NCBI GenBank assembly: GCA_014729555.1
Contig: WJJT01000036.1
Span: 1-61,564 of the forward strand
DNA length: 61,564 nucleotides
Reading direction: 5' to 3'
From: Candidatus Woesearchaeota archaeon
Lineage (GTDB): Archaea; Nanobdellota; Nanobdellia; Woesearchaeales; ARS49
Shown: positions 1,901-50,411 of the stretch, one piece after another
How positions within the stretch are numbered: the stretch's first letter is position 1
Layout of the letters: every line of letters begins with the position of its first letter
The notes under the pieces: model-generated
Told to the model about the DNA's origin: nothing
Databases searched by the model: none
What the model saw: only the letters and a program-made list of their open reading frames with translations
Position numbers and translations under genes: made by a program

Positions 1901-2740
1901 TCAGTTTTCAGAGGCAGGCTCGCGCCTTGGCCCGAAAAAAGTCTCCTCGCGCATCACCTGCACTGCGTGCTTGTCAGGAATCCTTATTGTGAATTTTGCT
2001 CCTTTGCCGTATTCGCTGTCAACAAGTATCTTTCCCCAGTGGCTTTTCACAATCCTGCGGGCAACAGCAAGCCCTATACCATGCCCTTTGCTGCCTTTTG
2101 TGGTATACCATGCATCAAATATGCGCGGCAGATCTGTTTCCTTTATGCCGCATCCGTCATCCTCAAACTCAATAAAGACATACTTTTCCTTGTGATAAGA
2201 GCGAACATAAACATTTTTAGAGCGTTCCTTAGGAAGACCCCCATAAGCATGCATTGCGTTCTGCATCATGTTTGTAAAAACAGTCTCCAGGCCCCCTGGA
2301 TATCCGTCAACCTCAGGCACATCATTCAGATCTGCAACTAACTTAATCCCTTTACTATTGTATTGAAATTCATAGAGGCTGATGACACTGTTTAACAACT
2401 GATTAAAATAGACTGTTCCTCTTGTAAACTCTCCGCGTTTTGAAAAATTAAGCAGATTCCTCATCAACTCATTTAATTTTTCTGCAGAACTAAGTATAGT
2501 GCCATACAAGAAAGCATTCTCTGTATCTCCTATTTCTTCAGCACTTCTCTTGCCTGCTTCTGCCAGGCCGATTATTGGAGTTATCAAGTTGTTGGAATCA
2601 TGCGCAACACTTGAAACAAGAAAACCCAGTACGCTGTGTTTTTCAGCACGGACGAACCTGCTTAACCTGTCTTCATCAACAGAATCATCAGGCCCAAAAA
2701 TGGCCTTCAATTCTTTTTCAATATCTGATTCTTCTGACAT
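1901..2740 (-). CDS. Sensor-less histidine kinase (DHp + HATPase_c); ORF could extend to 2848
   Basis: H-box VSSVAHDSNNLITP, N-box TNMMQNAMHA, G-boxes DDGCGI and GHGIGLAVARRIV. I prefer the start at MSEESD because the ATG at 2848 sits only about 12 nt from a TATA box. Confidence 0.8.
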   Translation of the reverse strand: MSEESDIEKELKAIFGPDDSVDEDRLSRFVRAEKHSVLGFLVSSVAHDSNNLITPIIGLAEAGKRSAEEIGDTENAFLYGTILSSAEKLNELMRNLLNFSKRGEFTRGTVYFNQLLNSVISLYEFQYNSKGIKLVADLNDVPEVDGYPGGLETVFTNMMQNAMHAYGGLPKERSKNVYVRSYHKEKYVFIEFEDDGCGIKETDLPRIFDAWYTTKGSKGHGIGLAVARRIVKSHWGKILVDSEYGKGAKFTIRIPDKHAVQVMREETFFGPRREPASEN

Positions 2741-2821
2741 CCCTATTGCACCAGGATTACTATATCCTTGTTTAGAGATTAAGATTATATAAAGGTTTGC
2801 CACAAAATAAAGTGAAAGTTT

Positions 2822-2838
2822 GTCCTTGCGGACAGATA
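2822..2838. repeat. 17-nt repeat GTCCTTGCGGACAGATA, copy 2
   Basis: Perfect match to 1854-1870. The adjacent TAGAAGTTGCATA (2837-2849) also recurs at 1140-1152. Confidence 0.8.
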
Positions 2839-2886
2839 GAAGTTGCATAGAGAAACTTTATAAATCGCAGCAGGATTTCTTTAATC

Positions 2887-4294: not shown

Positions 4295-5176
4295 ATGGCT
4301 AAAAGAAAGCTGATAAAGTTTGGAAAAGCAAGCTATATGACCATTCTGCCAAAGAAATGGATAGATTCTCAACAATTGAAAGAAGGGCAGATGCTGAATA
4401 TAGAATTCAAAGACAACATACTAACTATAAGTCCTGCTGAAATCAAAATTCCTGAGAAAATCAAGAGAATTGAATTTTCCAAAGATGAATATCTCAAATT
4501 ATTGAGGGATAAGATCATTACTGCATACCTTAATGGATTCACAACTATTAAAATCTCGTTTGAAGAAGTTCTTACTAAAAAACAACTGGGAATGATAAAT
4601 GAAGCATTAAGAAGATGTACTGGATTGTCTATCAGCTCTCAAACAGAAAAATCTGTGACTATCAAAGATTTGTTGGATGAAACAAAAATAAGTGATATAA
4701 ACCAGCAATTAACGACAGCAAAGATGAGCCTTAGAAACTGCTTTTTCTCCTTGGAAGAACACCTACAAAAAAAAGCAAACTTTGAATCAGCACAACCAGT
4801 AGAACTGGCAACAAATTCATTATATCTTGCGATAAGATCATCTGCAATAACCAGAGAGGAAAAATACTCTTATTTTCTAATTTTCAATAATATGCTAACA
4901 ATATTACAGACAATGTACAATATAGCTGACTTGAAACCAGATAAAGTAGTGATAAACAAAATGAATGAAATAAAAGAAGTATATGACAAAACTTTCTTTG
5001 TGCTATTAAATAAAGATACTAAAAAATTAAAGGAACTGAACAGAATAAGAAAAAACATAAAAACAGAGTACAAAAAGTTAATAGGAAGCAAAAATTCTAA
5101 CACTGCTCTTGTGGGAGCGTACTGCAGAAGAATTCTTTATCTGTTAGGCATCATATCTGAACTTAGTTTAGATTAA
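4295..5176 (+). CDS. AbrB/SpoVT-domain regulator with PhoU-like helical C-terminal region
   Basis: N-terminal KLIKFGKASYMTILPKKWIDSQQLKEGQML.I is a swapped-hairpin AbrB motif. The helical remainder resembles archaeal PhoU-type regulators. Confidence 0.6.
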   Translation: MAKRKLIKFGKASYMTILPKKWIDSQQLKEGQMLNIEFKDNILTISPAEIKIPEKIKRIEFSKDEYLKLLRDKIITAYLNGFTTIKISFEEVLTKKQLGMINEALRRCTGLSISSQTEKSVTIKDLLDETKISDINQQLTTAKMSLRNCFFSLEEHLQKKANFESAQPVELATNSLYLAIRSSAITREEKYSYFLIFNNMLTILQTMYNIADLKPDKVVINKMNEIKEVYDKTFFVLLNKDTKKLKELNRIRKNIKTEYKKLIGSKNSNTALVGAYCRRILYLLGIISELSLD

Positions 5177-5862
5177 GGAACATCAACAAAAGTAGCTCTT
5201 TTTTTCCAGTTCTGCAAAGGGATTTCACCAAAATCACAATCCTTGCAAGTCCAGTCAAGATAAATCCAGTCATCATTCTTCAGGGTGCCTGGAGCATCTG
5301 CAATCTTGACGCGAACATAAGCATGCCTGGCAATAAAAACAAGCTGTGCATCAATGCCGATAGCCTCCTGAAGAGACGCAAGGGCAATAGAACCAGACTC
5401 ACAATCCCCGCCGCCTGCAACAAGAAACTCCTTAGGATCCTCAACATACTCAACACCCTGCGGGTCTGAAACATACTCATAATTATCCCGCAGGAAATAA
5501 AACAAAGCCTTAGAGTAACAGAGCAGGCCCTCTTTACAGGAAGCAGTCACAATCTTGTTGGCAGTGAGCTTAATCTTCTGGTCAGAAGGATTAACCAACT
5601 CCTTTAAATCCTCCTGACTGACAGAATTCTTTGGCTCTGAAACATCCTTCTCCATGCCATGAGCCAGGGCCTTTCCGACAGAGGTAATCCTCTTAGGCTC
5701 TTCATACGCCCTGATCCATTGGTAAGGAAACATATACAGAATCACAATCATCACAAGAAAAAGCCCTACAAGTAGCCAGACCCATTTTCTTGACTTGTGC
5801 TCTCTGTGCGGCTCTTTATCAATTTTTCTCGCTTCCTTCAGGACGTCCTCAGGCGTCATCAA
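5173..5862 (-). CDS. Membrane-anchored transglutaminase-like (papain-fold) protein
   Basis: One N-terminal TM helix. GGGDCESGSIALASL (Cys), ARHAYVRV (His) and YLDWT (Asp) lie in the order expected for the transglutaminase core. Confidence 0.5.
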   Translation of the reverse strand: MMTPEDVLKEARKIDKEPHREHKSRKWVWLLVGLFLVMIVILYMFPYQWIRAYEEPKRITSVGKALAHGMEKDVSEPKNSVSQEDLKELVNPSDQKIKLTANKIVTASCKEGLLCYSKALFYFLRDNYEYVSDPQGVEYVEDPKEFLVAGGGDCESGSIALASLQEAIGIDAQLVFIARHAYVRVKIADAPGTLKNDDWIYLDWTCKDCDFGEIPLQNWKKRATFVDVP

Positions 5863-14126: not shown

Positions 14127-14729
14127 ATGCAATCTATGAAAATATACCTGATAAGGCATGGTGAAACCACAGGAGACATTGAAGACAGATACGGCGGGGA
14201 CTACGAGGACCACCTGACTGAAAAAGGCAAACAGCAGTCAAAAGAATTAAGCCAGAAACTCAAGGGCAAGGGTATTGAAATAGTCTACCACAGCCCGAGA
14301 ATAAGAGCAACTGAAACAGCAAACATTATTGCACAGGCTCTTGGCCTTGATAAAGAGATTGTCCAGGACTTAAGAGAAAGAAATGCTTATGGTATTCTGA
14401 CAGGCCTGACGAAAAAAGAAGCCCTTGAAAAATATCCTGCAGAGATTGCTGAATTAAAAAGAGACAAAAAGCGCCACAAAGTAAAAAATTCTGAGGATTA
14501 TGACCATTTCAAAGAGAGAGTAACTAAAGCACTAGATGAAGTCACAAAAAATGAAAAATACTCAACAATTGCAATCATAACTCACGGAGGGCCAATCAGC
14601 TGCATTGTGCGAGAGATTCTAAAAGCAGGGGAATTGAAAAAGCTGGGCGACTGTGCAATACTTGAACTCAAACGAAAAGATAATAATTACCAGCTTATAA
14701 GCATGGATGGTGCTGAATTAGAGGATTAA
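14127..14729 (+). CDS. Histidine phosphatase (phosphoglycerate mutase family)
   Basis: IYLIRHGETTGD catalytic RHG motif, plus ITHGGPI. Confidence 0.8.
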   Translation: MQSMKIYLIRHGETTGDIEDRYGGDYEDHLTEKGKQQSKELSQKLKGKGIEIVYHSPRIRATETANIIAQALGLDKEIVQDLRERNAYGILTGLTKKEALEKYPAEIAELKRDKKRHKVKNSEDYDHFKERVTKALDEVTKNEKYSTIAIITHGGPISCIVREILKAGELKKLGDCAILELKRKDNNYQLISMDGAELED

Positions 14730-23594: not shown

Positions 23595-23636
23595 GCGGAA
23601 GATTTGCGGGTTTTTAGAGGATAAACATATAAAAAC
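23595..23636 (+). promoter_or_regulatory. Promoter of the FHA-caspase gene (TTGCGGGTTTTT...CATATAAAA)
   Basis: TATA ends 23 nt before the ATG at 23657. The upstream CGGGTTTTT element also occurs in the kinase promoter. Confidence 0.55.
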
Positions 23637-23656: not shown

Positions 23657-24712
23657 ATGCAAGAGATAGCAAGATGGAAAATACGGCCTTCAGCAGTCGG
23701 AGACATATACGGAAAAAACCTTGAGCTGGAGAGAAGAATAATACCAGTATACAAGCCAATACTAATAGGCACATTAGCAGGGCATTTTCAAGACAATAAA
23801 GGAGAGTGGAGCTATGAGCTTCTTGAGATAGATGAAGAGACAAACAACACACTAATTAAGAGAATGCTTCAAAAAAAGCCTCAGCTGGAGAGTGTTGTGA
23901 ACAATGCAGGGTTTCAGCAGGTTCTCAGGATAAATCCCGCCAGATACAGGCACATATCCAGGTTTCATGCAATACTGGGCACAAAACAGGGTAATTTGTA
24001 CATTGCAGACCTAGAGAGCAAGAATGGCATATACACAGGCCTGCCTGCAGAACAAACACGCTCTGCAATACTGCGAGATGGACAGATAATATACTTAGGC
24101 GGCAAAGCAAAAGACAGTGCGCAGATAAAAGTACATGAAGCAATTAGTAAGGCATATGCACTGCTTGTAGGAGTTGATTACAAAAACCAGAACAGCAAAG
24201 TAATTGAAAAAGAGATTTGGCAAATAGATCAAATGCTCAGAAAACTGGGCGTGCCGTATGAATGCAGAACATTAAAACACAGCCATGCAACAAAAGAAAA
24301 CATCACAAGTTATCTGCAAAGAGCAGAAAGCCTGCCAGAAAACAACCTTTTCTTTTTCTTTTGTGGCGCACATGGAAGCAAAGCAGCAATATCGTCAGCA
24401 GATGGAAAGCTTGCAAAACAAGAGCTGGCCGGGCTGCTGAACAGGATACAAGCAAAAAAAATCATGATAATAGACATATGCCATGCCTGGGGCGGCTGGC
24501 AGGAGCTTGACCTTGACAGCGGGCTGTATTTTTTCTCTTCACAAGAAGAGGAAACAGCAAAATGGGGGGGATTCACACCAGGATTAGCAGAAAGAATTGC
24601 AGAATTACTAAACAAAAAAGAGCCAATTGACATGAAACAAATAAGAATCAATGACCTGGCAAGAGCGCACACACCAGCAAAAAAAGGAAACAAGTCAATA
24701 ATACTGTATTAA
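23657..24712 (+). CDS. FHA domain fused to a caspase-like (peptidase C14 fold) domain
   Basis: FHA: ISRFHAIL and ESKNGIYTG. Caspase-like: ALLVGVDYKN (strand 1), FFFCGAHG (catalytic His) and MIIDICHAWGG (catalytic Cys), in the canonical order and spacing. Confidence 0.7.
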   Translation: MQEIARWKIRPSAVGDIYGKNLELERRIIPVYKPILIGTLAGHFQDNKGEWSYELLEIDEETNNTLIKRMLQKKPQLESVVNNAGFQQVLRINPARYRHISRFHAILGTKQGNLYIADLESKNGIYTGLPAEQTRSAILRDGQIIYLGGKAKDSAQIKVHEAISKAYALLVGVDYKNQNSKVIEKEIWQIDQMLRKLGVPYECRTLKHSHATKENITSYLQRAESLPENNLFFFFCGAHGSKAAISSADGKLAKQELAGLLNRIQAKKIMIIDICHAWGGWQELDLDSGLYFFSSQEEETAKWGGFTPGLAERIAELLNKKEPIDMKQIRINDLARAHTPAKKGNKSIILY

Positions 24713-25986
24713 TCAAAAATCTCGCTTATTTTCAGAAAAACATAATGCAAGGCAAGAGTTGCAAACCCTGCAAAAGAACCGCTTCCGATAACACGCGTAT
24801 ACTCATTAAAATAATCAAGAAAAGAATCAGGCAGAATGCCATACACTGCCCCTCCAAGAAGAGTGCCTGTAACAGCACCAGCCACACCAAATGCATTGGC
24901 CTGATCTATAGTCAGATTAATATCCAGCCTCTTGGATTCCAGGCTTACAGCAGCAACATTAAACAAAGTACCTGAAAAAGAGCTAATGCCTGCAGAGCAA
25001 AGAGTCTCAGTAACACTATAACTAAAACCAGTTGCAGTGAAATACAACATAGCAGCAGCAACAGGAGCATACATCATGCATGCAACAATACATCCAATAC
25101 CCCTGCCTGAAACATCATGCTTATCAACCGCAGGCTCTTGTTTTACAGGAGATGCATAAGGCATGTCCCACTCACCAGGTGTCTGGGCTGCCCTGAGTGC
25201 ATTACGCATCTCTGAAGCGCTCTGAAACCTCTCACCAGGATTCCTGCTCCTGCTCTTCAGAATAATATCATCCAGTCTTTTGTCACCAACAGACTCATAA
25301 GTATATAACGGCTCGTCACCAGTAAGCATCTTATAGAGCACAGTACCAACAGAAAAAACATCAGATCTTGCATCTGCACTTCCCTGCATCTGCTCAGGAG
25401 CCATATAAGCAATAGTGCCGACAACCCTGCTCCTCAAGTCTTCATCAATATCCCCAAGACTGTGCTCTAACTCCTTGCCAGCAAGATTAGGATTAGTGAT
25501 TGTTGCCCAGGAACTCCTTATTTTTCTCTTGTAATCCTTGAACAAGCCAAAATCAGCAAGCTTTGCAAAACCTTTTTTATCAAACAAGATATTCTCAGGC
25601 TTGATATCCCTATGAATAATACCCCTGCTATGCGCGTAATCCAGGCCCTTCAGGACATTAACCGCAATATCAACAGCAGCGCCCTTTTCAAGTGCAGTGA
25701 CATTAACCCTGTCAGCAAGGCTTTTGCTGCACAACTCCATTTCAATATAATTTCTGCCCTCATCTTCACCACAGCTATACACTTCAACAATATTAGGGTG
25801 GCCTTTAAGCCTCATCAAGACCTCTGCCTCTTTATCTGCAGAAGGGTTTGGCTTTGTAAATACCTTGCAGGCAACCTTTTTGCAGGCAGTCATGCTTAAG
25901 GCTTCATAAACATCACTAAAAGCACCCCTTCCAATACGCTCATCAAGCGCGCAGTTTCCTATCATCTTTCCAGACAAGTTTTCCAT
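24709..25986 (-). CDS. Hanks-type Ser/Thr protein kinase with a C-terminal multi-TM domain
   Basis: GRGAFSDV glycine loop, VACKV, HRDIKPENILF, DFG, AYMAPE, then about 130 aa of hydrophobic helices. 4-nt 3' overlap with the FHA-caspase gene. Confidence 0.9.
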   Translation of the reverse strand: MENLSGKMIGNCALDERIGRGAFSDVYEALSMTACKKVACKVFTKPNPSADKEAEVLMRLKGHPNIVEVYSCGEDEGRNYIEMELCSKSLADRVNVTALEKGAAVDIAVNVLKGLDYAHSRGIIHRDIKPENILFDKKGFAKLADFGLFKDYKRKIRSSWATITNPNLAGKELEHSLGDIDEDLRSRVVGTIAYMAPEQMQGSADARSDVFSVGTVLYKMLTGDEPLYTYESVGDKRLDDIILKSRSRNPGERFQSASEMRNALRAAQTPGEWDMPYASPVKQEPAVDKHDVSGRGIGCIVACMMYAPVAAAMLYFTATGFSYSVTETLCSAGISSFSGTLFNVAAVSLESKRLDINLTIDQANAFGVAGAVTGTLLGGAVYGILPDSFLDYFNEYTRVIGSGSFAGFATLALHYVFLKISEIFD

Positions 25987-26004: not shown

Positions 26005-26034
26005 ATTCTTTATATGCCTTTGCCAGAAAAACCC
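26005..26034 (-). promoter_or_regulatory. Promoter of the kinase gene (CGGGTTTTTCTGGCAAAGGCATATAAAGA on the minus strand)
   Basis: Shares 21 identical nt (TCTGGCAAAGGCATATAAAGA) with repeat D at 17437-17457. TATA lies 23 nt before the ATG. Confidence 0.6.
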
Positions 26035-26139: not shown

Positions 26140-28467
26140 ATGGCAATACTTGATAATTTAATGAGTATTTATCAGTCTTATCCCTGGGTATTTGACGGAA
26201 TAATCATATGTGTCCTGCTGGGCGTGTTGTTCAGAATTCTTTTTGAAAAAGGAAAGATAGGAGATGAAAAACAAGCCAAAAAACTAGGCGGAATATTCGG
26301 ATTCTTCCTCGGCATAGCAATGATCGGCTACATGCAGTACAGAGGCTGGACACTGTTCATTGACGGCGGGCCATGGGTTTTTTCAATCGTGATAATATCA
26401 TTAGTTCTTGTTTTATGGGCAGTCATGGATGGCCTGCTAAAGCACGAACACAGGTCAGTAACACTGCCATTAGCATTTGTGGTTGCAACAATGCTAATCT
26501 ATGCATTCCTGAACTTTGTCCCATCATACATGGCAGGAGTCGGTAACTTGTTTGGTGATTCTGTCTGGATATGGCATCTCATCATGTGGTGTTTAATGAT
26601 ATTCATACTTTTCTGGGCGTTACTTGGCATGATGGCAGGAGGAATGCCAAAAGCAGGAGAGGGATTTTGGGGTGCAGTAGGAGGAGCAATAAAAGCACCA
26701 TTCAAGGCAGCAGGCTGGGGGCTTGAAGGGGCAGGCGACATCTATGACTGGTGGAAAGACAAGAGAGCAGACAGAAAAAGAAGAGCCGCAGCAAGAGAAA
26801 AGCCAGCAGACACACCAGAAGAAACTGAAAAAATAGATACAGACACAGACACAGACCTTGCAGATGCAAGCGAAGAAGCAGAAAAAACAGACAAGGCGCT
26901 TGATGCTGCAAAAGCAATAAGCTCAGCACTTGCAAAAGTGCTCAATGAAATAAGAGCATCTGCAAACGGAGCAAGGCAGTTTCCTGCAGAATTCAAGCCA
27001 GAAAACTACAGTAACATAAGCAAATGGCTGAAGGCAAAACAAGGTGAATTAAATTCAGAAAAAAAGAGCTTTGATGGAATAAAACTTGTTGAAAAGCTAA
27101 TCAATGCACAAGAAGCACTGCAGAAAGCAAAAGCAGATGTTAATGCAGAACTGCAGAAAATAGGCACATATACAAAAATAAATGAAGCAATCACAAAAAT
27201 AGGCCAGATAAGTGATGACAATCCAGAAAAGGCGCGGCTGCTTGCAGACGCACAGGCAGAACAAAAGCATCTTGCACAAATAGTCTCAGGACTGCAGGCA
27301 GTAATAAAACCATTTGAAGACGCAATAAATGAAATCCTAAAAAAAGAAGAACTTGCCCAGACAAAATCAAAAATAGAGGAATTAGACAACCACATAACAG
27401 CACTGCAGGCACTATTGCCAGCAGTAATCAAAGACCTTGCAGAACTGGGAAAAGAGATTCCAGAAGAGGCAAAAAAACCACTTCAAGACAAGATCAAGCC
27501 AAACTGCGACAAAATAATCACTTCAGCAACAAACGCAATAGAAACACTCGGAACACTAAACAAAGTCATTATAGACGGGCGGCTAAAACAAGGAGTGATT
27601 GCAGCAGAAGCTGCAATAACAAGATTTATTGAAAGCAAAAAAATATACATAAAAGACTTTGTGCAATTACAGGCAGACGTTGACGCACTGCTTGCAAGAA
27701 TCAATCAAATCCTGTCAAAACAAATGTCACCAAAAGAAAAGACAACAATGGTCACAGCACTTGATAACATAAAAAACACAATAGCAACACAAAAAAACGA
27801 ACTTCTCACACTGATAACAGAAGCAGAAAAATTCATCAAAGCCATCAAAAAAGCATGGGAGATACAGACAGAGACAAAAAGAAAGATGGAGACAGATATA
27901 GCAATAACAGAAAAAAAGACAACAGAAGAACTCATAAAACAACAAGAAGAAGAGGCCAGAGCACAGATAACAGCAGCAATAGAAGCAGCAAAAAAAGAGC
28001 AGACAGACACAGTAAAAATCCTTACTGCAGGAGCAGCAACAGTCAAAAAAGCAAAATCAGAGCTTGTGACAGCAAGAAACATGCTCTCACAGCTGGTGCA
28101 GAAAACAGCAGGAAAAAGAAGGAAAAATGCAGAAATACTCCTAAAAAACCTGAATTACATGCTTGAAGAAGAAGAGGAAATACAAAAAGGCCTGAACTTT
28201 CTTCGAGACTATGAAAAATATATAATAGACACAGTGCTGGCAAGAACAGAACTGCCAAAAACAAAAAGAAAAATAGGCTCAGTAATATACGAATTAAGAA
28301 ACAAAATAATCAAGCCGCTTAAAGAAATCGTGCAGATGCTTGACGAAGAACTCATATTCCTGACAAAAGAAGAAAAAGAATTAACTGCAGAGCCTATCTC
28401 GCCGCCACCACCATCAGGAGCAGCCACAAGACCAATAGAAATGCCTGTGCCTCCACCGCCAGCCTAA
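26140..28467 (+). CDS. 775-aa protein: N-terminal ~190-aa multi-TM domain, ~500-aa coiled coil, proline-rich C-terminus (PPPPSG...PPPPA)
   Basis: Hydrophobic helices in residues 1-190, then a long heptad-like A/E/K/L/Q-rich sequence. No catalytic motif. Confidence 0.8.
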   Translation: MAILDNLMSIYQSYPWVFDGIIICVLLGVLFRILFEKGKIGDEKQAKKLGGIFGFFLGIAMIGYMQYRGWTLFIDGGPWVFSIVIISLVLVLWAVMDGLLKHEHRSVTLPLAFVVATMLIYAFLNFVPSYMAGVGNLFGDSVWIWHLIMWCLMIFILFWALLGMMAGGMPKAGEGFWGAVGGAIKAPFKAAGWGLEGAGDIYDWWKDKRADRKRRAAAREKPADTPEETEKIDTDTDTDLADASEEAEKTDKALDAAKAISSALAKVLNEIRASANGARQFPAEFKPENYSNISKWLKAKQGELNSEKKSFDGIKLVEKLINAQEALQKAKADVNAELQKIGTYTKINEAITKIGQISDDNPEKARLLADAQAEQKHLAQIVSGLQAVIKPFEDAINEILKKEELAQTKSKIEELDNHITALQALLPAVIKDLAELGKEIPEEAKKPLQDKIKPNCDKIITSATNAIETLGTLNKVIIDGRLKQGVIAAEAAITRFIESKKIYIKDFVQLQADVDALLARINQILSKQMSPKEKTTMVTALDNIKNTIATQKNELLTLITEAEKFIKAIKKAWEIQTETKRKMETDIAITEKKTTEELIKQQEEEARAQITAAIEAAKKEQTDTVKILTAGAATVKKAKSELVTARNMLSQLVQKTAGKRRKNAEILLKNLNYMLEEEEEIQKGLNFLRDYEKYIIDTVLARTELPKTKRKIGSVIYELRNKIIKPLKEIVQMLDEELIFLTKEEKELTAEPISPPPPSGAATRPIEMPVPPPPA

Positions 28468-28469
28468 TT

Positions 28470-30239
28470 CTAAGCAGCAGAAAGCTTTTTATTGCAGTCA
28501 TCCAGGTTTTGTTTTGCTTGTGCAAGCCTTGTCACAGCAACCTTGTTCTCAGGATTCTGAACAAGCTCCTGCTCAACAGCAGCAACTGCCTTTTGATAAT
28601 GCACTCTGGCAGACTTGTAATCCTGACTGTGCTCATAGAAAATATTACCAAGATTATTATGCGCAACACACCTGATTAAATTATCCTTAGGTTCTGTAGC
28701 AAGGAATTTAGCATAAACCTTCTGCTTAAGCTCATACGGGGCATTATTCTCCTTAAGAGCATGCATCCAGCCCCAGATCTCTTTCTGGTGCTCTGCCTTG
28801 ACCTCATCAAGCATCTGGCTGTATCTGTCATCCTCATCCTCAAGAGTAGGCAATGAAGCCTCCTCTGGCTCATGCCAAGGAGCATTAACTTTCTTTCTGT
28901 CCTGACCTACACGACTGCCGGACTTTGCCTCTTCAATCAAGTCTGAAACAAGAACAGCAAGTTTTTTGCCTCTTGAACGCAATTCCTGCAGCTGCTCATT
29001 ATCATTAAATTCGGCATTCTGCGCAAAAGCACTCTCTATAAAAGCATACCACTCTGCAACACTATCGCCAAGCTCAGCAAACCTGGCACTGTATTGCGCG
29101 AATAAAGCATCATATTCCTCTCTCATCTGAGCACTGTCTTTTTTTGCTTTGTCTCTTTCCTGCTCAAGACCTGCGCTCTTCTCAGAAAGCGTCACAATAT
29201 TTTCATCTGCTTCAAGAAGCTGTCCCTGCAATTTATCAATCTCCTGCATGTACTCATGCTCTGCATACATAAGCTTTTCCTGCAAGTCCTTGATTTCAGC
29301 AGCACTTAGCTTTTGATCATGCTCATTAGCAAGAATCCTTTCCTGTAATTCCTGCATTTCAGCCTGCTTGTACTCTAATGTTTGAGCAAGATCTAACTGC
29401 AAGTTTTTTTTGTCCTCTTCAAAAACAGCTTTACCTGCTTCAAGACCAGAAACTCTTTGTTTTAAAGTATCATTTGCAAGTGTAACACTTCTACAGGCAT
29501 GGCCAGCCTCTGTCAGTTCTGTCTCAAGTTCTGCTTCTCTTGCCTCAATTACTGATTTTTCAGCTGCCTGGGCTGTTTTATCAGCCTCAAGCTTAGCAAC
29601 GTCTCTTGCAAGAGCTTCTTTTTGACCTGCAACTTTCTCTTTATCTGCCTGGACTTCTGCTTTTGCAGCCTTTGCATCAAGCACTTCATCCTCAAGCATG
29701 TTTATCTTCTTTTTACAGGCATGCCTGACCTGAGTCTCAACGTGTTCACCTATTGTAAAAATATTATTAAGCGCGTCAATAAAAGCAGTTTCATCATATT
29801 TTCTAAGCCTGGGCTCATTATTCAAAAGATACATTGCAATATTTTCTGCAGCATTCTTCAAGAAAGGCTGAACATTGTGCGGATTTATGTTGCTTGGATC
29901 AATTCCGGCAAGATCCTCTGCTTCTACCAAAATTCTCGGAATACAGGCCCTGGCAGCCTTTAAAATGCTTTCAGAGGCACTTGCCTCGCCTGTTCCATCT
30001 TCTTTGTCTTTTTTCTCAACAAGACGGAAAACAACCCTTTCAACAAGGCCTCTCTCATCTGGCGTGACACTGTAAGAAGGCTTTTTCTGCACACCTTTCA
30101 ACTCTTCAGGTGTAAAATACTCTTTGATTTCACTTCTAGGAATATAATGCGCTGCAAGATCAGCAACAGCACTATGCAAATCTTGAAATGTTCTTAATGG
30201 ATTTTCTGATTTTTGTGATTTTTTATTTTTTTTTGCCAT
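28470..30239 (-). CDS. 589-aa acidic coiled-coil protein with a C-terminal TPR-like hairpin (paralog set member 4)
   Basis: Basic N-terminal peptide MAKKNKKSQK, central coiled coil, C-terminal AHNNLGNIFYEHSQDYKSARVHYQKAV. Its stop is 2 nt from the stop of the convergent 775-aa gene. Confidence 0.8.
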   Translation of the reverse strand: MAKKNKKSQKSENPLRTFQDLHSAVADLAAHYIPRSEIKEYFTPEELKGVQKKPSYSVTPDERGLVERVVFRLVEKKDKEDGTGEASASESILKAARACIPRILVEAEDLAGIDPSNINPHNVQPFLKNAAENIAMYLLNNEPRLRKYDETAFIDALNNIFTIGEHVETQVRHACKKKINMLEDEVLDAKAAKAEVQADKEKVAGQKEALARDVAKLEADKTAQAAEKSVIEAREAELETELTEAGHACRSVTLANDTLKQRVSGLEAGKAVFEEDKKNLQLDLAQTLEYKQAEMQELQERILANEHDQKLSAAEIKDLQEKLMYAEHEYMQEIDKLQGQLLEADENIVTLSEKSAGLEQERDKAKKDSAQMREEYDALFAQYSARFAELGDSVAEWYAFIESAFAQNAEFNDNEQLQELRSRGKKLAVLVSDLIEEAKSGSRVGQDRKKVNAPWHEPEEASLPTLEDEDDRYSQMLDEVKAEHQKEIWGWMHALKENNAPYELKQKVYAKFLATEPKDNLIRCVAHNNLGNIFYEHSQDYKSARVHYQKAVAAVEQELVQNPENKVAVTRLAQAKQNLDDCNKKLSAA

Positions 30240-30240
30240 A

Positions 30241-31284
30241 TTACTCTGCCTCTGCTGTGACTGTGTTTTCTTTTAATTGATTTTCATAAAACTCAACATT
30301 ATGCTCAAGCATGCCCCACTTATGCAGTGATTCTGCACAGGGGTTTTTAATTAGTTCAGTCTTGCTCACTTGTCTGGCTCTTCTTGCATAATTGAATGCT
30401 TTCTCACACTCGCCCCTGCCTGCGCTTGTCTCTGCCAGTTCACTCAAAACATAAACCAAAACCTCCTTGTCTTTTGACTTACAGCCCTTAGCACCTGCAT
30501 AGGCTTCAAAAACATAATTCCTGAACTCTTCTGCCTCCTGCTTTTCAGCATCAGGGGCAGTTGCATAAGCAGTATCAACCTCTTCAAGAGCCTTTTCCCA
30601 AAAACACCTGTTCTTTTCATCAATAACAATTTTTTCACCAGATGCAAGCTGCAGGATTACAGAATATTTCTCAGTAACACTAACTCCTTCATATGGCTGT
30701 ACATTGCAATCAGAAGCTTCTGACGTACTGTCAAGCACAGACTCAAGCTGCTCTTCAGAATCAGGAGCCTCTACATCTTTAAGCTGTTCTGTTTTTGTGC
30801 CAACAATAACCGTATCATCAGTATCATCAAGGTCCTCTATAACCCGCGTTTCCAGCGCAGCAACATACTCTCTTTCTTGTTTTGAAGGCCCTGCTGGAAT
30901 CGCAGTCTTTGTATCATGAATATCTGTTTCAGCAGGAGGAAAATCCTGTTCAGGCGCAGATTCCTCTTGATGAGTTTTCTGCAATCTACCAGGCTGATCA
31001 CTAGTGCCTGCAAATTCCTGCACTTTATCAAACCCCACCAGATTAGGATCTGTGCCACTACTGACTTTTTCTGCCATACAATCAGCCGTATCTCTTTCCA
31101 GTTCGTCATCCTCAAATGCAGCAGGAGCTGGTGCACATAATTCAGGAACATGGGTTATATTTCTAGGATCAACTTCAGGAGCTGGCTCTGCCTTTTCCCT
31201 GGCTTTATCAGCTGCTCTTTTCTTTAATGTTCCTGTCCAAGCAGATGGCCTGCTCACCTTTTTTGGCCTTTTTCTCTGAGTCAT
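30241..31284 (-). CDS. Acidic protein with a C-terminal TPR-like hairpin (paralog set member 3)
   Basis: MTQRKRPKK basic N-terminus, D/E/T-rich middle, C-terminal VLVYVLSELAETSAGRGECEKAFNYARRAR. Confidence 0.75.
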   Translation of the reverse strand: MTQRKRPKKVSRPSAWTGTLKKRAADKAREKAEPAPEVDPRNITHVPELCAPAPAAFEDDELERDTADCMAEKVSSGTDPNLVGFDKVQEFAGTSDQPGRLQKTHQEESAPEQDFPPAETDIHDTKTAIPAGPSKQEREYVAALETRVIEDLDDTDDTVIVGTKTEQLKDVEAPDSEEQLESVLDSTSEASDCNVQPYEGVSVTEKYSVILQLASGEKIVIDEKNRCFWEKALEEVDTAYATAPDAEKQEAEEFRNYVFEAYAGAKGCKSKDKEVLVYVLSELAETSAGRGECEKAFNYARRARQVSKTELIKNPCAESLHKWGMLEHNVEFYENQLKENTVTAEAE

Positions 31285-31376
31285 TTTAGTCTTTACCCAC
31301 AAACTATGGTTTTTTACCACTATTTGGTAGTATTACTCATATATAAAGCTTTTGGTTTTGAGGGGTTTGTTGGGGT

Positions 31377-32648
31377 TTATTCCTTTATTTCAGCCCTGTA
31401 AAACGCAAGATTCTCTTCAGCCTCTTTCAAGTTATCAGATAATTTCTCCTTGCACAAGTTCCTTGCCCTTGCTGCATAAGACTCTGCCTCTGCTTTTTTG
31501 CCGTCATCATAAGCTGAACCAGCCAGTTCACTCAAAACAAAATACATAACTTCAGGATCTCTTGAGGCTGCAATGCTATACAATTCAAAAGCACACCTTC
31601 TTACTTCTGAAACATACTGCGCCATAAAAGCAGAATCATTAATCTCATCAGCAGCAGGAACATCAGCAACTGCATCAGACAACTCATTCAATAAATTCTC
31701 TGCTTTTTCATCAAGGCCTGCAGGAGCTTCTTTTGCCTGCCTTGCCTCTGCAACAGCATTTTCTGCAGACTGCTTGTAACCAGCAACTTGTGCCTTGTAA
31801 GCCTTAACAACAGACATAATTTTATCCAGAGTTTTAATGTAACTTAACACTTCAAGAGCATGCTCAACACTTGGAGTTTCTGGCTCCTGCTCTTCTTGCT
31901 TTTTCCTGAAAATAGCAGTAACTGCAGAATCTTTAGCACTCTTTACCTTTCCAACAATCCAGTCAATTGTGCTGTCTTTTGCATCAGGCTCAGCAGCTTC
32001 AGGCTCTTGCTCTAAAACCTCTGCTGCAACTGCATCAAGCTTTTTACAGAGTGTATCAAATGCATTCTTAAGACCATCATATGGCTTTGCAGCATCTTTC
32101 AGGCTGGAAATCTTATTCCTTAGCCCGGTGATATTAGCCTGGTAAGTTTTAAACAGCCCTAAAAGCTCTGCAAACTCTCGGCCCTCTGCTGCACCTGAAG
32201 GAAAAACTTCAGCCAGCAGAGCTCTAATATAATCATCACGTGCATTGACCTGATCTTCAAGTTCCTGATATTCCTCTGTATCTTGTATATCTAAAACAGA
32301 CATTTCTTCGGGCTGCTCAGGCACTTTGACAGCAAGCTGATCCTGCATACCAGTAATCTTTGTTTGCATTTGCTTAAATTCTTCAGCAAGCTGTGTTTTC
32401 TCAGCTTTATTTAAGCCATATTTATGAACAATTGTTATTGTCTTTTTATCAGGATCTGTTAGGAGTGTAACCATCTCAACCCTAAGCTCATTATCCTCTG
32501 TCCAGAAATCAGGTGTATTCACAACATCAGATTTATTTAACATCTCATAGCCTTTATCTGAAAATTGCTTGGCAAAATCATCAAAATTGGTTTTCCTGCC
32601 TATGTGAGCTCCTAGTTCCCCGTCTTCCCAGGACTTATGTTCATCCAT
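31377..32648 (-). CDS. Acidic coiled-coil protein with a C-terminal TPR-like hairpin (paralog set member 2)
   Basis: C-terminal VMYFVLSELAGSAYDDGKKAEAESYAARAR aligns with member 3. Start ATGGATGA overlaps the upstream stop. Confidence 0.75.
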   Translation of the reverse strand: MDEHKSWEDGELGAHIGRKTNFDDFAKQFSDKGYEMLNKSDVVNTPDFWTEDNELRVEMVTLLTDPDKKTITIVHKYGLNKAEKTQLAEEFKQMQTKITGMQDQLAVKVPEQPEEMSVLDIQDTEEYQELEDQVNARDDYIRALLAEVFPSGAAEGREFAELLGLFKTYQANITGLRNKISSLKDAAKPYDGLKNAFDTLCKKLDAVAAEVLEQEPEAAEPDAKDSTIDWIVGKVKSAKDSAVTAIFRKKQEEQEPETPSVEHALEVLSYIKTLDKIMSVVKAYKAQVAGYKQSAENAVAEARQAKEAPAGLDEKAENLLNELSDAVADVPAADEINDSAFMAQYVSEVRRCAFELYSIAASRDPEVMYFVLSELAGSAYDDGKKAEAESYAARARNLCKEKLSDNLKEAEENLAFYRAEIKE

Positions 32649-33837
32649 CTTTAGCCTCTGCAAAATAATCCTTGAATTTCTGGATCTCTGCCTTTATTGA
32701 TTCTTTGCTTTCTTCTGGTGCAAGATCAAGAGCTGTCTGGCATAATGATTCTGCCTTCTTCAACTGCTCTTTTGCTAATTTTTCTTCGCCTTCTTGTGAA
32801 TAGGAATCACTAAGAATCCCATGCAGATAAGCCTGCTGAACAAGCTCAACTGGGTCTGCGGGAGAAAGTGCAAGACTATATCCTGCTTGATCTGCCTCTT
32901 CTTTCAGGCTGGTTATTACCTCAACAAGGTATGGAACTGGCTCTTTTCTTAACCTGGTTTTATCAAGTTCCTTTCCTATTAAATACTGGGGCATATTGCT
33001 AAGCGCAGGTGCATGCTTTTGATTTTCATGGCCATAATCTGCAATCCTGTTTTTTTGCTGTAGTAATTTATCAAGCGCATATGCAGCAACTTTGCCTTCT
33101 GAATCAGATGCATTTGTTACCAAACTAGACAAAAATTCTTTTTCATCTGGAAAATGCTCAAGAAGCCCTTGGTACAGCCTCTGTATTAGTTTCCGCTGCG
33201 TAATTGCTGCCAGTATCGTGTCTGAAAATATATCTTTGTAAGATTCTTTTTCTTCTTCTGGCTTTTCCCCTTTATTATCTGCATCCTTCAGGCTATCTGC
33301 ATAATCAATCCTGCATCTTGCATCTGCAACTGTATCAGGAACTATCTTTGCAAGGCAGTCCATCAGTTTGTTATACTTATCATTTGCAGTATCTTCTTTA
33401 CTATGTGCTTTCATAAGAGCTCCTTGAACACGGGCCTCAAAGTGTTTTGCATTCTCTATGGTCACCCGCAGAACTTCCTTAAACATAAAATCCTCTCTTG
33501 ATTCTGAAGGACTGCCATCTGCACGCGCTAAGATTTCAGCAGCCTCAGTCTCACCTGCATAGTCTTCTAAAATTCTTTTATTGCTTTTGCATAAATCTAC
33601 GACAGAAAGAATAAATGTCTGCAATTCTTCAAAAGCCTCAAACTGCCGCACCCTGCTCTGCGCTGCCTCTGCATCTTGTTTGTACCGTTGCTTTTTAAGA
33701 TTAGAGTCTCTTATTTTCTTTTCTAGATCAGCAATGATCTCAGCATCAGGTCTACGAAACATACTGATTGCTCTTGCAAGAATACTAAGTCTAGGTTTTT
33801 TCTGTCTATTTTCATCAGGCATTTTTTTTTCAGCCAT
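32641..33837 (-). CDS. Acidic helical protein with a C-terminal TPR-like hairpin (paralog set member 1)
   Basis: Basic N-terminus ...RQKKPRLS, C-terminal AYLHGILSDSYSQEGEEKLAKEQLKKAESL. Confidence 0.75.
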   Translation of the reverse strand: MAEKKMPDENRQKKPRLSILARAISMFRRPDAEIIADLEKKIRDSNLKKQRYKQDAEAAQSRVRQFEAFEELQTFILSVVDLCKSNKRILEDYAGETEAAEILARADGSPSESREDFMFKEVLRVTIENAKHFEARVQGALMKAHSKEDTANDKYNKLMDCLAKIVPDTVADARCRIDYADSLKDADNKGEKPEEEKESYKDIFSDTILAAITQRKLIQRLYQGLLEHFPDEKEFLSSLVTNASDSEGKVAAYALDKLLQQKNRIADYGHENQKHAPALSNMPQYLIGKELDKTRLRKEPVPYLVEVITSLKEEADQAGYSLALSPADPVELVQQAYLHGILSDSYSQEGEEKLAKEQLKKAESLCQTALDLAPEESKESIKAEIQKFKDYFAEAKDG

Positions 33838-49395: not shown

Positions 49396-49803
49396 TTAGT
49401 GAGAAACAAGTTTTAAGTGGCTTTTCTGGCGCAGCACAACAACAGAAATGCCTTTTTGTTTCAGTTTCCTCTTTAACTCAGCATCTGTTGTTGCAACAAT
49501 CGTGTCCCTGCCTGCAATATCAAGAATCAATTCATCAACAATCCTGTCTTTTTTTGTCTTGATTGACGGAATCTTCTTAGCCTTCAGGATGGCCTTTGCC
49601 AGTTTAGCATCTGCCTTGGACTTGCCTTTCTGGCTTTCAATTATGTTATCCAGCTCATCAAGAGTCTTGTCAATAACATAAATTTTATAAGGAAAATCAA
49701 GGATTCTTTTCAGCTCCTCCACATAATCAACCTTATGACTAGCACAGTGAATCAAAAAATCAGTGTCCAGTATTACTGCCTTTACCATATGCCTTAATGT
49801 CAT
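49396..49803 (-). CDS. Fcf1/Utp24-like PIN-domain endonuclease
   Basis: AVILDTDFLIH....K, and IVATTDAELKRKLKQKGISVVVLRQK is typical of archaeal Fcf1 homologs. Confidence 0.75.
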   Translation of the reverse strand: MTLRHMVKAVILDTDFLIHCASHKVDYVEELKRILDFPYKIYVIDKTLDELDNIIESQKGKSKADAKLAKAILKAKKIPSIKTKKDRIVDELILDIAGRDTIVATTDAELKRKLKQKGISVVVLRQKSHLKLVSH

Positions 49804-50365: not shown

Positions 50366-50411
50366 TAATACCCACCAAAAACAAGAAAGTATCTGCACTA
50401 TATAAAACATT

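What the first reader, a model, noticed from the sequence alone, without database searches (positions are those of the whole stretch)
23657..25986. FHA domain fused to a caspase-like protease, convergent with and overlapping a membrane Ser/Thr kinase
The 351-aa protein has FHA signatures (SRFH, SKNG) in its N-terminal half. Its C-terminal half has ALLVGVDY, FFFCGAHG and IIDICHAWGG, which match the strand-1 / His / Cys layout of C14 caspase-fold proteases. A pThr-binding module fused directly to a caspase-like effector, beside the only kinase in the window, implies protease recruitment or activation by phosphorylation. The two genes converge with a 4-nt overlap, so their transcripts must be antisense at the 3' ends. 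No PP2C phosphatase lies nearby.
Basis: partly seen in the sequence, partly recalled or inferred. Interest (0 to 1): 0.8.

Follow-up and report, generated by a model that had tools for sequence, protein, structure and literature searches.

The report
Kinase-paired FHA–caspase-like protease in Woesearchaeota
A tiny symbiotic-type archaeon encodes a caspase-like cysteine protease fused to a phospho-signalling (FHA) domain, and this gene is always found next to its own Ser/Thr kinase; that makes it a compact, testable candidate for kinase-controlled proteolysis in archaea, although similar domain pairings are already catalogued in bacteria.

Summary
ORF 23657..24712 (+) encodes a 351-aa protein with an N-terminal FHA domain (Pfam 31 bits). 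Its C-terminal domain is a compact clan-CD/C14 caspase fold: Pfam C14 22.0 bits when scanned alone, profile-vs-PDB hits to GSU0716 and metacaspases-4/9, AF2 pLDDT 95.6, Foldseek caspases at probability 1.0. H239 and C275 are invariant in 47 relatives and align with the metacaspase His/Cys motifs. The convergent 425-aa ORF is an intact Hanks-type kinase with a TM anchor, and the two stop codons overlap (TTAA).

New here:
- All 9 distinct loci of this clade have a kinase gene immediately adjacent, in four arrangements (convergent, convergent in an unrelated neighbourhood, co-directional, divergent). None of 5 outgroup FHA–C14 loci does.
- This kinase-linked clade has lost the canonical FHA phosphate-binding Arg (T39) and gained a ~60-residue loop insert, so pThr dependence is uncertain.
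- The 4-nt overlap is ordinary for this genome and is not conserved.
- Bacterial caspase–FHA and caspase–Pkinase fusions are already listed in a 2012 survey supplement.

Verdict: a real two-gene kinase / FHA–orthocaspase-like module specific to Woesearchaeota-type archaea; a new variant of a known kind, of moderate interest.

The parts
23657..24712 (+). FHA-C14 gene (351 aa + stop)
   Evidence: ORF. 100% identical to an NCBI protein named 'FHA domain-containing protein [Candidatus Woesearchaeota archaeon]'. N-terminus conserved in homologues.
23657..24136 (+). FHA domain, residues ~1-160 (Pfam core match 98-148 = nt 23948-24100)
   Evidence: PF00498 31-33 bits. AF2 beta-sandwich strands at 7-15, 21-23, 35-38, 53-57, 88-92, 105-161.
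23771..23773 (+). Thr39 codon at the position of the canonical FHA phosphate-binding Arg ('GR' -> 'GT')
   Evidence: G38 is invariant in 47 sequences. The next residue is R in the outgroup (K in P0017) and T/M/A/S in the kinase-linked clade.
23774..23917 (+). Clade-specific insert in the FHA beta3-beta4 loop (residues 40-87, includes helices 60-81)
   Evidence: ~60 residues between the GR column and S101 in the clade, against ~32 in the outgroup. Helices in the AF2 model.
23957..24025 (+). Retained FHA signature loops S101-R102-x-H104 and S121-K122-N123
   Evidence: Invariant or nearly invariant in A1/A2.
24143..24709 (+). Caspase-hemoglobinase (Peptidase C14-like) domain, residues ~163-351
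   Evidence: PF00656 22.0 bits. PADLOC caspase E 1e-6. Profile vs PDB: 3bij 3e-11, AtMC4 3e-9. Foldseek caspases/GPI8/legumain/MALT1 at prob 1.0. pLDDT >90.
24371..24373 (+). Predicted catalytic His239 (AHG motif, just after strand 231-237)
   Evidence: Invariant in A1 and A3, >=90% in A2. Aligns with YSGHG of AtMC4, MC9 and GSU0716.
24479..24481 (+). Predicted catalytic Cys275 (IIDICHAWGG, just after strand 267-273)
   Evidence: Invariant in 47 sequences. Aligns with DSCHSGG of AtMC4; the 6w8r chain has Ala in this column.
24709..24712 (.). TTAA: overlapping stop codons of the convergent genes
24709..25986 (-). Hanks-type Ser/Thr kinase gene (425 aa + stop)
   Evidence: Pkinase 157.6 bits. 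K41, E53, HRD125-127, K129, N132, DFG145-147, APE196-198 conserved in orthologues.
25393..25554 (-). Extended activation segment (DFG145...APE198), with conserved SSW-x-T162-x-T164-N165-P166 insert
   Evidence: S158, T162, T164, N165, P166, T191 invariant in 6 close orthologues. N165/P166 >=90% across partner kinases from all gene arrangements.
25033..25101 (-). Predicted TM anchor of the kinase (residues 296-318), followed by a Gly-rich hydrophobic tail
   Evidence: Kyte-Doolittle 19-residue window maximum 1.96. The L006 orthologue ends in a single hydrophobic tail.
23627..23635 (+). TATA-like box ATATAAAAA centred ~26 nt upstream of the FHA-C14 ATG
   Evidence: Read directly from the sequence; function inferred.
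26009..26015 (-). TATA-like box ATATAAA centred ~26 nt upstream of the kinase ATG
   Evidence: Read directly from the sequence; function inferred.
24679..24685 (-). T7 run on the kinase strand, 24-30 nt past the kinase stop and inside the FHA-C14 3' coding end (candidate archaeal oligo-T terminator)
   Evidence: Read directly from the sequence; function inferred.

Best explanation
This is a two-gene signalling module of Woesearchaeota-type (DPANN) archaea. It pairs a membrane-anchored Hanks-type Ser/Thr kinase with a soluble 351-aa protein in which a derived FHA domain is fused to a compact, catalytically intact caspase-fold (C14, orthocaspase/metacaspase-like) cysteine protease. The most likely mechanism has three steps. 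First, the kinase, once activated, phosphorylates itself, probably on the conserved T162/T164 of its unusually long activation segment, and/or phosphorylates the FHA-C14 protein. Second, the FHA domain docks on the kinase or on the phospho-site. Third, docking recruits, concentrates or un-inhibits the protease domain, which then cleaves its targets using H239/C275. Shown: domain identities, fold, dyad conservation, kinase catalytic integrity, and co-inheritance of the two genes. Inferred: the direction of control (kinase to protease), phospho-dependence of docking, activation by recruitment or dimerisation, the substrates and the biological role.
For: Domains: FHA 31 bits; C14 22.0 bits against GA 21.4 on the C-terminal half; C14 in 37 of 47 and FHA in 44 of 47 relatives. 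Dyad: H239/G240/C275 are the only invariant columns of the C-terminal-half alignment. They align with YSGHG and DSCHSGG of AtMC4, and the 6w8r chain has Ala in the Cys column. Both residues sit just after adjacent beta-strands, as in caspases. Kinase: all catalytic motifs are conserved. Linkage: a Pkinase gene is immediately adjacent in 9 of 9 distinct clade loci. It is convergent in the window, L001, L002-4, L005, L007 and L006; convergent in an unrelated NifU/aminotransferase neighbourhood in L017; co-directional directly upstream in L018 and L022; and divergent in L023. By contrast 0 of 5 outgroup FHA-C14 loci have one; Fisher p = 5e-4, and the loci are not fully independent. The partner kinases share a distinctive activation-segment insert with a (T/S)-N-P core, so they form one orthologous family. 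An archaeal precedent exists for a kinase/FHA pair (ST1565/ST0829, ArnA/B/C; PMC5007285).
Against: The canonical phosphate-binding Arg of the FHA 'GR' motif is Thr39 here and is lost in exactly the kinase-linked clade. In ST0829 the equivalent R164A mutation abolishes kinase interaction, so classical pThr binding is doubtful unless R102/K122 compensate. The C14 Pfam score is marginal for this sequence and is absent in the full-length scan. The metacaspase 'LRGxxxD' S1-pocket Asp is not conserved in this clade, so specificity, and possibly activity, may differ. No phosphatase partner is present in the window. No experimental or transcript data exist.
Confidence: 0.6

Rival explanations
1. The same two-gene module, but the FHA is a phospho-independent docking domain and control runs the other way or is constitutive. 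The Arg-less FHA with its helical insert binds the kinase permanently, and the protease processes the kinase, for example by releasing it from its membrane anchor or clipping its long activation-segment insert, or it processes a third protein.
For: Loss of the GR arginine and gain of a ~60-residue insert occur specifically in the kinase-linked clade. The kinase has an unusually long, conserved activation-segment insert and a linker before the TM anchor that could be cleavage targets. pTM 0.91 suggests a fixed FHA/protease arrangement.
Against: S101, R102, H104, S121, K122 and N123, the other phosphate- and peptide-contacting positions, remain conserved, which is unexpected if phospho-recognition had been abandoned. 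Conserved Thr residues are present in the kinase activation segment.
Confidence: 0.17
2. The module is an anti-virus or abortive-infection (regulated cell death) system: the kinase senses infection and unleashes the caspase-like protease to kill or arrest the cell. This concerns biological role and is compatible with the best explanation's mechanism.
For: PADLOC 'caspase' model E 1e-6, and strong kinase similarity to the PD-T4-6, MAD6 and PglW defence kinases. Caspase-like proteases and S/T kinases both recur as effector domains in prokaryotic conflict systems (PMC7159879, PMC8195603).
Against: The kinase hits are generic Hanks-domain similarity, far below the NCBIfam equivalog cutoffs. In most relatives the pair sits in a conserved housekeeping neighbourhood (DRG GTPase, L35Ae) rather than in a variable island. 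No other defence genes are adjacent.
Confidence: 0.12
3. The caspase-like domain is a non-catalytic scaffold (pseudo-protease), and the protein is simply an FHA adaptor of the kinase.
For: Marginal C14 HMM score. Loss of the metacaspase 'LRGxxxD' motif in the clade. Pseudo-orthocaspases are common in bacteria (PMC6426788).
Against: His239, Gly240 and Cys275 are invariant across 47 divergent sequences at 20% mean column identity, whereas known pseudo-variants substitute them. All 93 archaeal caspase homologues surveyed keep the dyad.
Confidence: 0.07
4. The adjacency is passive synteny with no functional link between kinase and FHA-C14.
For: In the closest relatives the whole region (DRG, L35Ae and the small membrane proteins) is syntenic, so adjacency there is uninformative on its own.
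Against: The pair persists in an unrelated neighbourhood (L017), appears inverted as a unit relative to DRG/TctA (L006), and occurs in co-directional (L018, L022) and divergent (L023) arrangements. Outgroup FHA-C14 genes lack kinase neighbours.
Confidence: 0.04

Closest known systems
Prokaryotic orthocaspases / metacaspase-like C14 proteases (e.g. Geobacter GSU0716, PDB 3bij; Microcystis MaOC1)
   Same: Caspase-hemoglobinase fold. His-Cys dyad in (S/A)HG and D-x-C-H-(A/S)-G motifs. Best profile hit in the PDB is 3bij, E 3e-11, followed by plant metacaspases 4 and 9. Commonly fused to accessory domains (PMC6426788).
   Different: Very compact (~190 residues). The accessory domain is an N-terminal FHA. 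The kinase-linked clade lacks the metacaspase 'LRGxxxD' motif. Archaeal DPANN host. Reported archaeal partner domains are FGE-sulfatase, EF-hand and Big_7, not FHA.
Sorangium cellulosum sce0912 (Bac_PepC14[7-264]|FHA[295-364]), listed in the supplement of Asplund-Samuelsson et al. 2012 (PMC3501461)
   Same: A single polypeptide combining a dyad-positive caspase homologue with an FHA domain.
   Different: Bacterial, with the opposite domain order (protease N-terminal). Not detectably related as a family to the present proteins: it did not appear in my searches. Only catalogued, never discussed or linked to a dedicated kinase.
Frankia sp. EuI1c Bac_PepC14|Pkinase fusion, and Rhizobium/Bradyrhizobium metacaspase operons containing Pkinase or FHA genes (PMC3501461 supplement)
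   Same: Association of a caspase homologue with Hanks-type phospho-signalling components.
   Different: Direct fusion to the kinase, or looser operons. Bacterial. No FHA-protease fusion with a separate, co-inherited kinase.
Archaeal kinase/FHA pairs: S. tokodaii ST1565-ST0829; S. acidocaldarius ArnC/ArnD-ArnA/ArnB
   Same: An archaeal Hanks-type kinase partnered with an FHA protein. ArnA (5a8i) is among the top PDB sequence hits for the FHA region. Interaction depends on FHA signature residues (PMC5007285).
   Different: Those FHA proteins carry Zn-ribbon/DNA-binding functions, not a protease, and they keep the GR arginine. They are Crenarchaeota, not DPANN.
FHA-gated bacterial enzymes and FHA-protease fusions (Bdellovibrio DgcB FHA-GGDEF, PMC6733907; B. 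thetaiotaomicron FHA-FHA-trypsin NP_811686.1, PMC2605481)
   Same: The same design logic: an N-terminal FHA domain placed in front of an enzymatic effector (the DgcB mechanism is from my own knowledge of that paper).
   Different: A different effector (diguanylate cyclase, serine protease). No conserved adjacent kinase is reported in those surveys.
Eukaryotic initiator caspases / MALT1 paracaspase (activation by induced proximity downstream of kinase signalling)
   Same: A caspase-fold protease whose adaptor domain brings it to an upstream signalling complex. MALT1 and caspase-8 are among the structural matches. This analogy is from established knowledge, not tested here.
   Different: The adaptor domains are DD/CARD/DED rather than FHA. 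There is no evidence here for dimerisation-driven activation.

Membership tests
Peptidase C14 / clan CD caspase-hemoglobinase fold | Significant match to the family HMM (PF00656) | tested here: met
   22.0 bits against GA 21.4, E 1.4e-4, on the C-terminal half alone. Not reported for the full-length protein. 37 of 47 relatives match, best 2.8e-16. PADLOC 'caspase' E 1e-6. Marginal for this sequence, solid for the family.
Peptidase C14 / clan CD caspase-hemoglobinase fold | Caspase-hemoglobinase alpha/beta fold | tested here: met
   AF2 pLDDT 95.6. Foldseek vs PDB: caspases, GPI8, legumain and MALT1 at prob 1.0, TM (target-normalised) 0.45-0.66.
Peptidase C14 / clan CD caspase-hemoglobinase fold | Catalytic His-Cys dyad at the canonical positions | tested here: met
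   H239 and C275 are invariant. They align to YSGHG and DSCHSGG of AtMC4, and the 6w8r chain has Ala in the Cys column. Each lies just after a beta-strand.
Metacaspase (as opposed to orthocaspase) | Recognisable p10 domain with its conserved Asp/Cys positions | tested here: inconclusive
   Residues 289-351 complete the fold. They align only weakly (non-significant second domains) with the p10-like regions of GSU0716, AtMC4 and MC9. The published p10 HMM was not available.
Metacaspase/orthocaspase | Acidic S1 pocket giving Arg/Lys P1 specificity | tested here: inconclusive
   The Asp two residues before the catalytic Cys (D273) is kept as D/E/N. The Asp of the 'LRGxxxD' motif is present in the outgroup but not conserved in the kinase-linked clade.
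Metacaspase/orthocaspase | Proteolytic activity | not testable with these tools
   Requires biochemistry.
FHA domain (PF00498) | Significant HMM match and beta-sandwich fold | tested here: met
   31-33 bits against GA 20.7. Multi-stranded beta structure over residues 1-160 in the AF2 model. Weak PDB sequence hits to Vps64 and ArnA FHA domains.
FHA domain (PF00498) | Signature residues Gly, Ser, His, Asn (G38, S101, H104, N123) | tested here: met
   Invariant or >=90% in 47 sequences.
FHA domain (PF00498) | Phosphate-binding Arg of the Gly-Arg motif | tested here: not met
   Thr39 here. T/M/A/S in the whole kinase-linked clade, R in the outgroup members (K in P0017). The equivalent R164A abolishes kinase binding in ST0829 (PMC5007285).
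FHA domain (PF00498) | Binding of phosphothreonine peptides | not testable with these tools
   Requires binding assays.
Hanks-type (eukaryote-like) Ser/Thr protein kinase | Pkinase HMM match plus intact catalytic residues (VAxK Lys, alphaC Glu, HRD, catalytic-loop Asn, DFG, APE) | tested here: met
   157.6 bits. K41, E53, H125-R-D127, K129, N132, D145-F-G147 and A196-P-E198 are conserved in orthologues.
   One TM-like segment at 296-318, KD 1.96, plus a hydrophobic Gly-rich tail. Not universal in the family: the L017 partner kinase is 285 aa and has no hydrophobic tail.
Dedicated kinase/FHA-effector gene pair | Conserved genomic linkage independent of surrounding synteny | tested here: met
   9 of 9 clade loci in four arrangements against 0 of 5 outgroup loci.
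Known anti-phage defence systems (PADLOC) | Match to a defined multi-gene system | tested here: inconclusive
   Only single-domain, generic matches (caspase; PD-T4-6, MAD6 and PglW kinases). NCBIfam equivalog cutoffs are missed by a wide margin.

The most novel reading that the evidence does not exclude
Woesearchaeota-type archaea possess a dedicated, co-evolving kinase / FHA-caspase switch. A non-canonical FHA, lacking the Arg and carrying a helical insert, recognises a lineage-specific (T/S)-N-P activation-segment insert of its partner kinase. This would be a previously undescribed mode of kinase-FHA recognition, and it would gate a caspase-fold protease. If so, it would be the first phospho-regulated proteolytic, possibly cell-fate or symbiosis-control, pathway defined in DPANN archaea.
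Probability: 0.3. Interest if true: 0.75.

Novelty: new variant of a known kind. Interest (0 to 1): 0.55.

Why it matters
How prokaryotic caspase homologues are switched on is largely unknown, and archaeal ones are rare: 93 of 11,208 in a 2019 survey (PMC6426788), and essentially unstudied. This module offers an unusually clean handle. It consists of one soluble 351-aa protein with a confidently predicted structure and one cognate kinase that is always encoded next door, so the question of whether Ser/Thr phosphorylation gates a caspase-fold protease in archaea could be tested directly in vitro. The kinase-linked clade has also lost the key FHA arginine while gaining a loop insert, which makes it a natural experiment on non-canonical FHA recognition. 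The significance is tempered because caspase-FHA and caspase-kinase combinations are already catalogued in bacteria, and because no function, substrate or phenotype can be assigned.

Tried and rejected
- Full-length Pfam scan: no C14 hit at E<=0.1. The domain had to be scanned alone.
- phmmer of the full protein against PDB sequences: only weak FHA hits, E 0.3-1.3. A profile of the C-terminal halves was needed.
- First AF2 run with 8 sequences gave a poor FHA half (pLDDT 65). It was superseded by the 47-sequence run.
- The search for related loci with the 47-sequence alignment failed because no conserved stretch was available. With the 8-sequence alignment it found only two full-length relatives among GTDB species representatives; the other seven were FHA-only bacterial hits.
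- The listing of cluster members returned no names or taxa for ten relatives.
- Literature searches for FHA plus caspase, metacaspase or orthocaspase found no paper discussing the fusion in its main text (one search was a syntax error). Only a supplement look-up found bacterial precedents.
- Model coordinates are not exposed in the sandbox, so His-Cys distance and FHA/protease interface geometry could not be measured.
- Antisense 3' overlap as a regulatory feature: rejected as non-conserved and common in this genome.
- A defence-island reading based on PADLOC hits: judged to be generic domain similarity.
- The downstream coiled-coil and membrane genes (26140-33837) as obligatory partners: rejected, because they are absent from L017, L018, L022 and L023, where only the kinase/FHA-C14 pair persists.
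Full report
**1. Observation**

The window is a complete 61,564-bp contig of a Candidatus Woesearchaeota (DPANN) archaeon. The 351-aa product is 100% identical to an NCBI protein named only 'FHA domain-containing protein', found on a contig of exactly this length. The two ORFs are as described: 23657..24712 (+), 351 aa, and 24709..25986 (-), 425 aa. The junction reads TTAA, so the stop codons overlap by 4 nt.

**2. Domain identities**

- **FHA.** Pfam finds FHA (31 bits against a cutoff of 20.7, residues 98-148) in the full-length protein.
- **C14 by sequence.** Pfam finds no Peptidase_C14 in the full-length protein at E<=0.1. Scanned alone, the C-terminal half crosses the C14 gathering score narrowly: 22.0 against 21.4 bits, E 1.4e-4. 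PADLOC's 'caspase' model gives E 1e-6.
- **C14 in the family.** An exhaustive HMMER search of 1.84 billion representatives gave 67 hits. Most are 330-370-aa proteins aligned across residues ~98-278, which spans both domains. Of 47 such proteins, 44 hit FHA and 37 hit Peptidase_C14, with a best E-value of 2.8e-16.
- **C14 against solved structures.** A profile of 20 C-terminal halves hits Geobacter GSU0716 (3bij, E 3e-11), Arabidopsis metacaspase-4 (3e-9), metacaspase-9, GPI8, TbMCA2, Yca1, caspase-1 and legumain.
- **Dyad.** In those alignments the family's 's-a-H-G' lies on 'YSGHG' and 'D-a-C-h-A-g-g' on 'DSCHSGG'. The AtMC4 chain 6w8r has Ala in exactly that Cys column, which fits my recollection that 6w8r is the catalytic C139A mutant. 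H239, G240 and C275 are the only invariant columns of that alignment. C275 and G240 are invariant, and H239 >=90% conserved, across all 47 sequences at 20% mean column identity.
- **Structure.** AlphaFold2 with the 47-sequence alignment gives pLDDT 95.6 and pTM 0.91. H239 and C275 each sit just after a beta-strand (231-237 and 267-273), as in caspases.

**3. The kinase**

The kinase scores 157.6 bits on Pkinase. K41, E53, HRD125-127, K129, N132, DFG145-147 and APE196-198 are all conserved among orthologues. It has one strong TM-like segment at 296-318, followed by a Gly-rich hydrophobic tail. Its activation segment is unusually long (DFG to APE is about 50 residues). It carries a conserved 'SSW-x-T-x-T-N-P' insert: S158, T162, T164, N165 and P166 are invariant in six close orthologues.

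**4. Is the neighbourhood meaningful?**

In the closest relatives (42-72% identity) the whole region is syntenic, including the DRG GTPase, L35Ae and the small membrane proteins. Adjacency there proves little on its own. The more distant clade members are decisive:

| Locus (protein, identity) | Arrangement |
|---|---|
| L006 (38%) | Pair still convergent and abutting, but apparently inverted as a unit relative to DRG/TctA |
| L017 (P0013, 35%) | Pair convergent and abutting in an unrelated NifU/aminotransferase neighbourhood |
| L018 (P0015, 26%) | Kinase directly upstream and co-directional, 1-nt gap |
| L022 (P0011, 38%) | Kinase directly upstream and co-directional, 21-nt gap |
| L023 (P0012, 38%) | Two kinase genes plus a Metallophos phosphoesterase, divergent upstream |

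In L023 one of the two kinases lacks HRD and DFG, so it is a pseudokinase. The partner kinases from all arrangements share the long activation segment with a (T/S)-N-P core, so they belong to one orthologous family.

By contrast, five outgroup FHA-C14 loci have no kinase within the available flanks: L015, L016, L019/L020, the P0079 contig and L021. Those loci are also archaeal, and Woesearchaeota where named. That makes 9 of 9 against 0 of 5. Fisher's exact test gives p = 5e-4, although the loci are not phylogenetically independent. I consider functional coupling of the kinase and the FHA-C14 protein well supported.

**5.

The canonical FHA Gly-Arg arginine is present in the outgroup FHA-C14 proteins (Lys in P0017). 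It is Thr39 here, and T/M/A/S throughout the kinase-linked clade. The same clade has about 60 residues between that position and S101, against about 32 in the outgroup. The extra residues are modelled as a helical hairpin, residues 60-81. The other signature positions are retained: S101, R102, H104, S121, K122 and N123.

In the archaeal FHA protein ST0829, R164A, S178A, T199A and N200A each abolish interaction with its kinase (PMC5007285). Loss of the Arg is therefore not trivial. Either R102/K122 compensate, which is inference, or docking has become partly phospho-independent and uses the insert.

**6. The overlap**

Each gene has an ATATAAA-type box centred about 26 nt upstream of its ATG. 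This is consistent with separate, near-leaderless archaeal transcripts, though that is inferred. A T7 run on the kinase strand lies 24-30 nt past the kinase stop, inside the FHA-C14 3' end. A weaker TTATTTT lies 14-20 nt past the FHA-C14 stop. Short antisense overlap of the 3' ends is therefore likely.

It is unremarkable, however. The pair 4295..5176/5173..5862 has the same 4-nt overlap, and 26140..28467/28470..30239 are 2 nt apart. In relatives the junction varies from a 1-nt gap to an 11-nt overlap, or the orientation differs altogether.

**7. Surroundings**

Among ORFs of at least 180 aa there is no second Hanks kinase and no PP2C, SpoIIE or other Ser/Thr phosphatase domain. The window does contain the following:

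- a histidine kinase at 1901..2848
- a His_Phos_1 protein at 14127..14729
- a second FHA protein with a canonical GR at 49760..50410

Downstream of the kinase lies a block of five large proteins without Pfam hits (26140-33837). The first has four N-terminal TM segments and a long coiled coil. The block is conserved in the close relatives only.

**8. Mechanism**

The best-supported reading is a kinase-coupled, catalytically competent caspase-fold protease.

- **Shown:** the domains, the fold, the dyad, kinase integrity and co-inheritance.
- **Inferred:** that the kinase acts upstream; that docking goes through the FHA onto phospho-Thr in the kinase activation segment (by analogy with PknB-type TxT loops and the ST1565/ST0829 pair); and that recruitment or relief of autoinhibition activates the protease.

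Substrates and physiological role are unknown. A defence or cell-death role is possible but unsupported beyond generic domain similarity.

**9. Comparison with what is known, and novelty**

Orthocaspases fused to assorted domains are well known. The 2012 survey's supplement already lists a Sorangium Bac_PepC14-FHA protein (opposite domain order), a Frankia Bac_PepC14-Pkinase fusion, and metacaspase operons with FHA or Pkinase genes. A Bacteroides FHA-FHA-trypsin protein is also on record. Neither the main texts of the caspase-homologue surveys nor the conflict-system papers discuss an FHA-caspase protein. The 2019 census of archaeal caspase homologues lists other partner domains. NCBIfam has no model for this protein.

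The novel elements are the archaeal (DPANN) family itself, the N-terminal and derived FHA, and the strictly co-inherited partner kinase. I classify it as a new variant of a known kind, with interest 0.55.

Noticed in passing
window 49760..50410 (-): A second FHA protein (216 aa, FHA 53 bits) with a canonical Gly-Arg motif but Cys in place of the usual Asn in the 'S-x-N-G-T' loop (DSTCGT). It is another potential client of the window's only Hanks kinase.
   Followed up: partly
window 26140..33837: A block of five large genes (775, 589, 359, 428 and 398 aa) with no Pfam or NCBIfam family. The first has four N-terminal TM segments, a long coiled coil and a Pro-rich C-terminus. The block is conserved next to the kinase in close Woesearchaeota relatives (L001, L002, L005, L007) but absent from more distant loci.
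   Followed up: partly
L023 51..4907: In this relative the FHA-C14 gene faces a divergent cluster: an active kinase (454 aa), a pseudokinase lacking HRD and DFG (307 aa), a 572-aa unknown protein and a Metallophos (PPP-like) phosphoesterase. The last is a candidate phosphatase partner that is missing from the window.
   Followed up: partly
L006 (CAZXEZ010000013.1): The MAG is labelled 'uncultured Methanosarcinales archaeon', but the contig carries the Woesearchaeota-type gene set (DRG GTPase, TctA, a 140-aa membrane protein, and the FHA-C14/kinase pair). This suggests a binning or classification error, or lateral transfer.
   Followed up: no
window 4295..5176 (+) / 5173..5862 (-): Another convergent gene pair with the same 4-nt overlap (an unknown 293-aa protein and a transglutaminase-like protein). 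Stop-codon overlap of convergent genes is a habit of this compact genome.
   Followed up: yes
window 23627..23635 (+) and 26009..26015 (-): Both genes of the pair carry an ATATAAA-type box at the same distance (~26 nt) from their ATG, which suggests leaderless transcripts and possibly co-regulated promoters.
   Followed up: no
window 1901..2848 (-): A histidine kinase (HisKA + HATPase_c). No response regulator was seen among the ORFs >=180 aa scanned.
   Followed up: no
L022 5342..7628: Downstream of the kinase/FHA-C14 operon in this relative lie an HATPase_c_2 (anti-sigma-type kinase) gene and a STAS-domain gene. These are partner-switching-like components and hint at a wider phospho-signalling neighbourhood.
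   Followed up: no
window 24679..24685: The Lys codons (AAA AAA) of the conserved C-terminal 'KKG' motif of FHA-C14 form a T7 run on the opposite strand, just downstream of the kinase stop. A coding sequence may be doubling as the partner gene's terminator.
   Followed up: no
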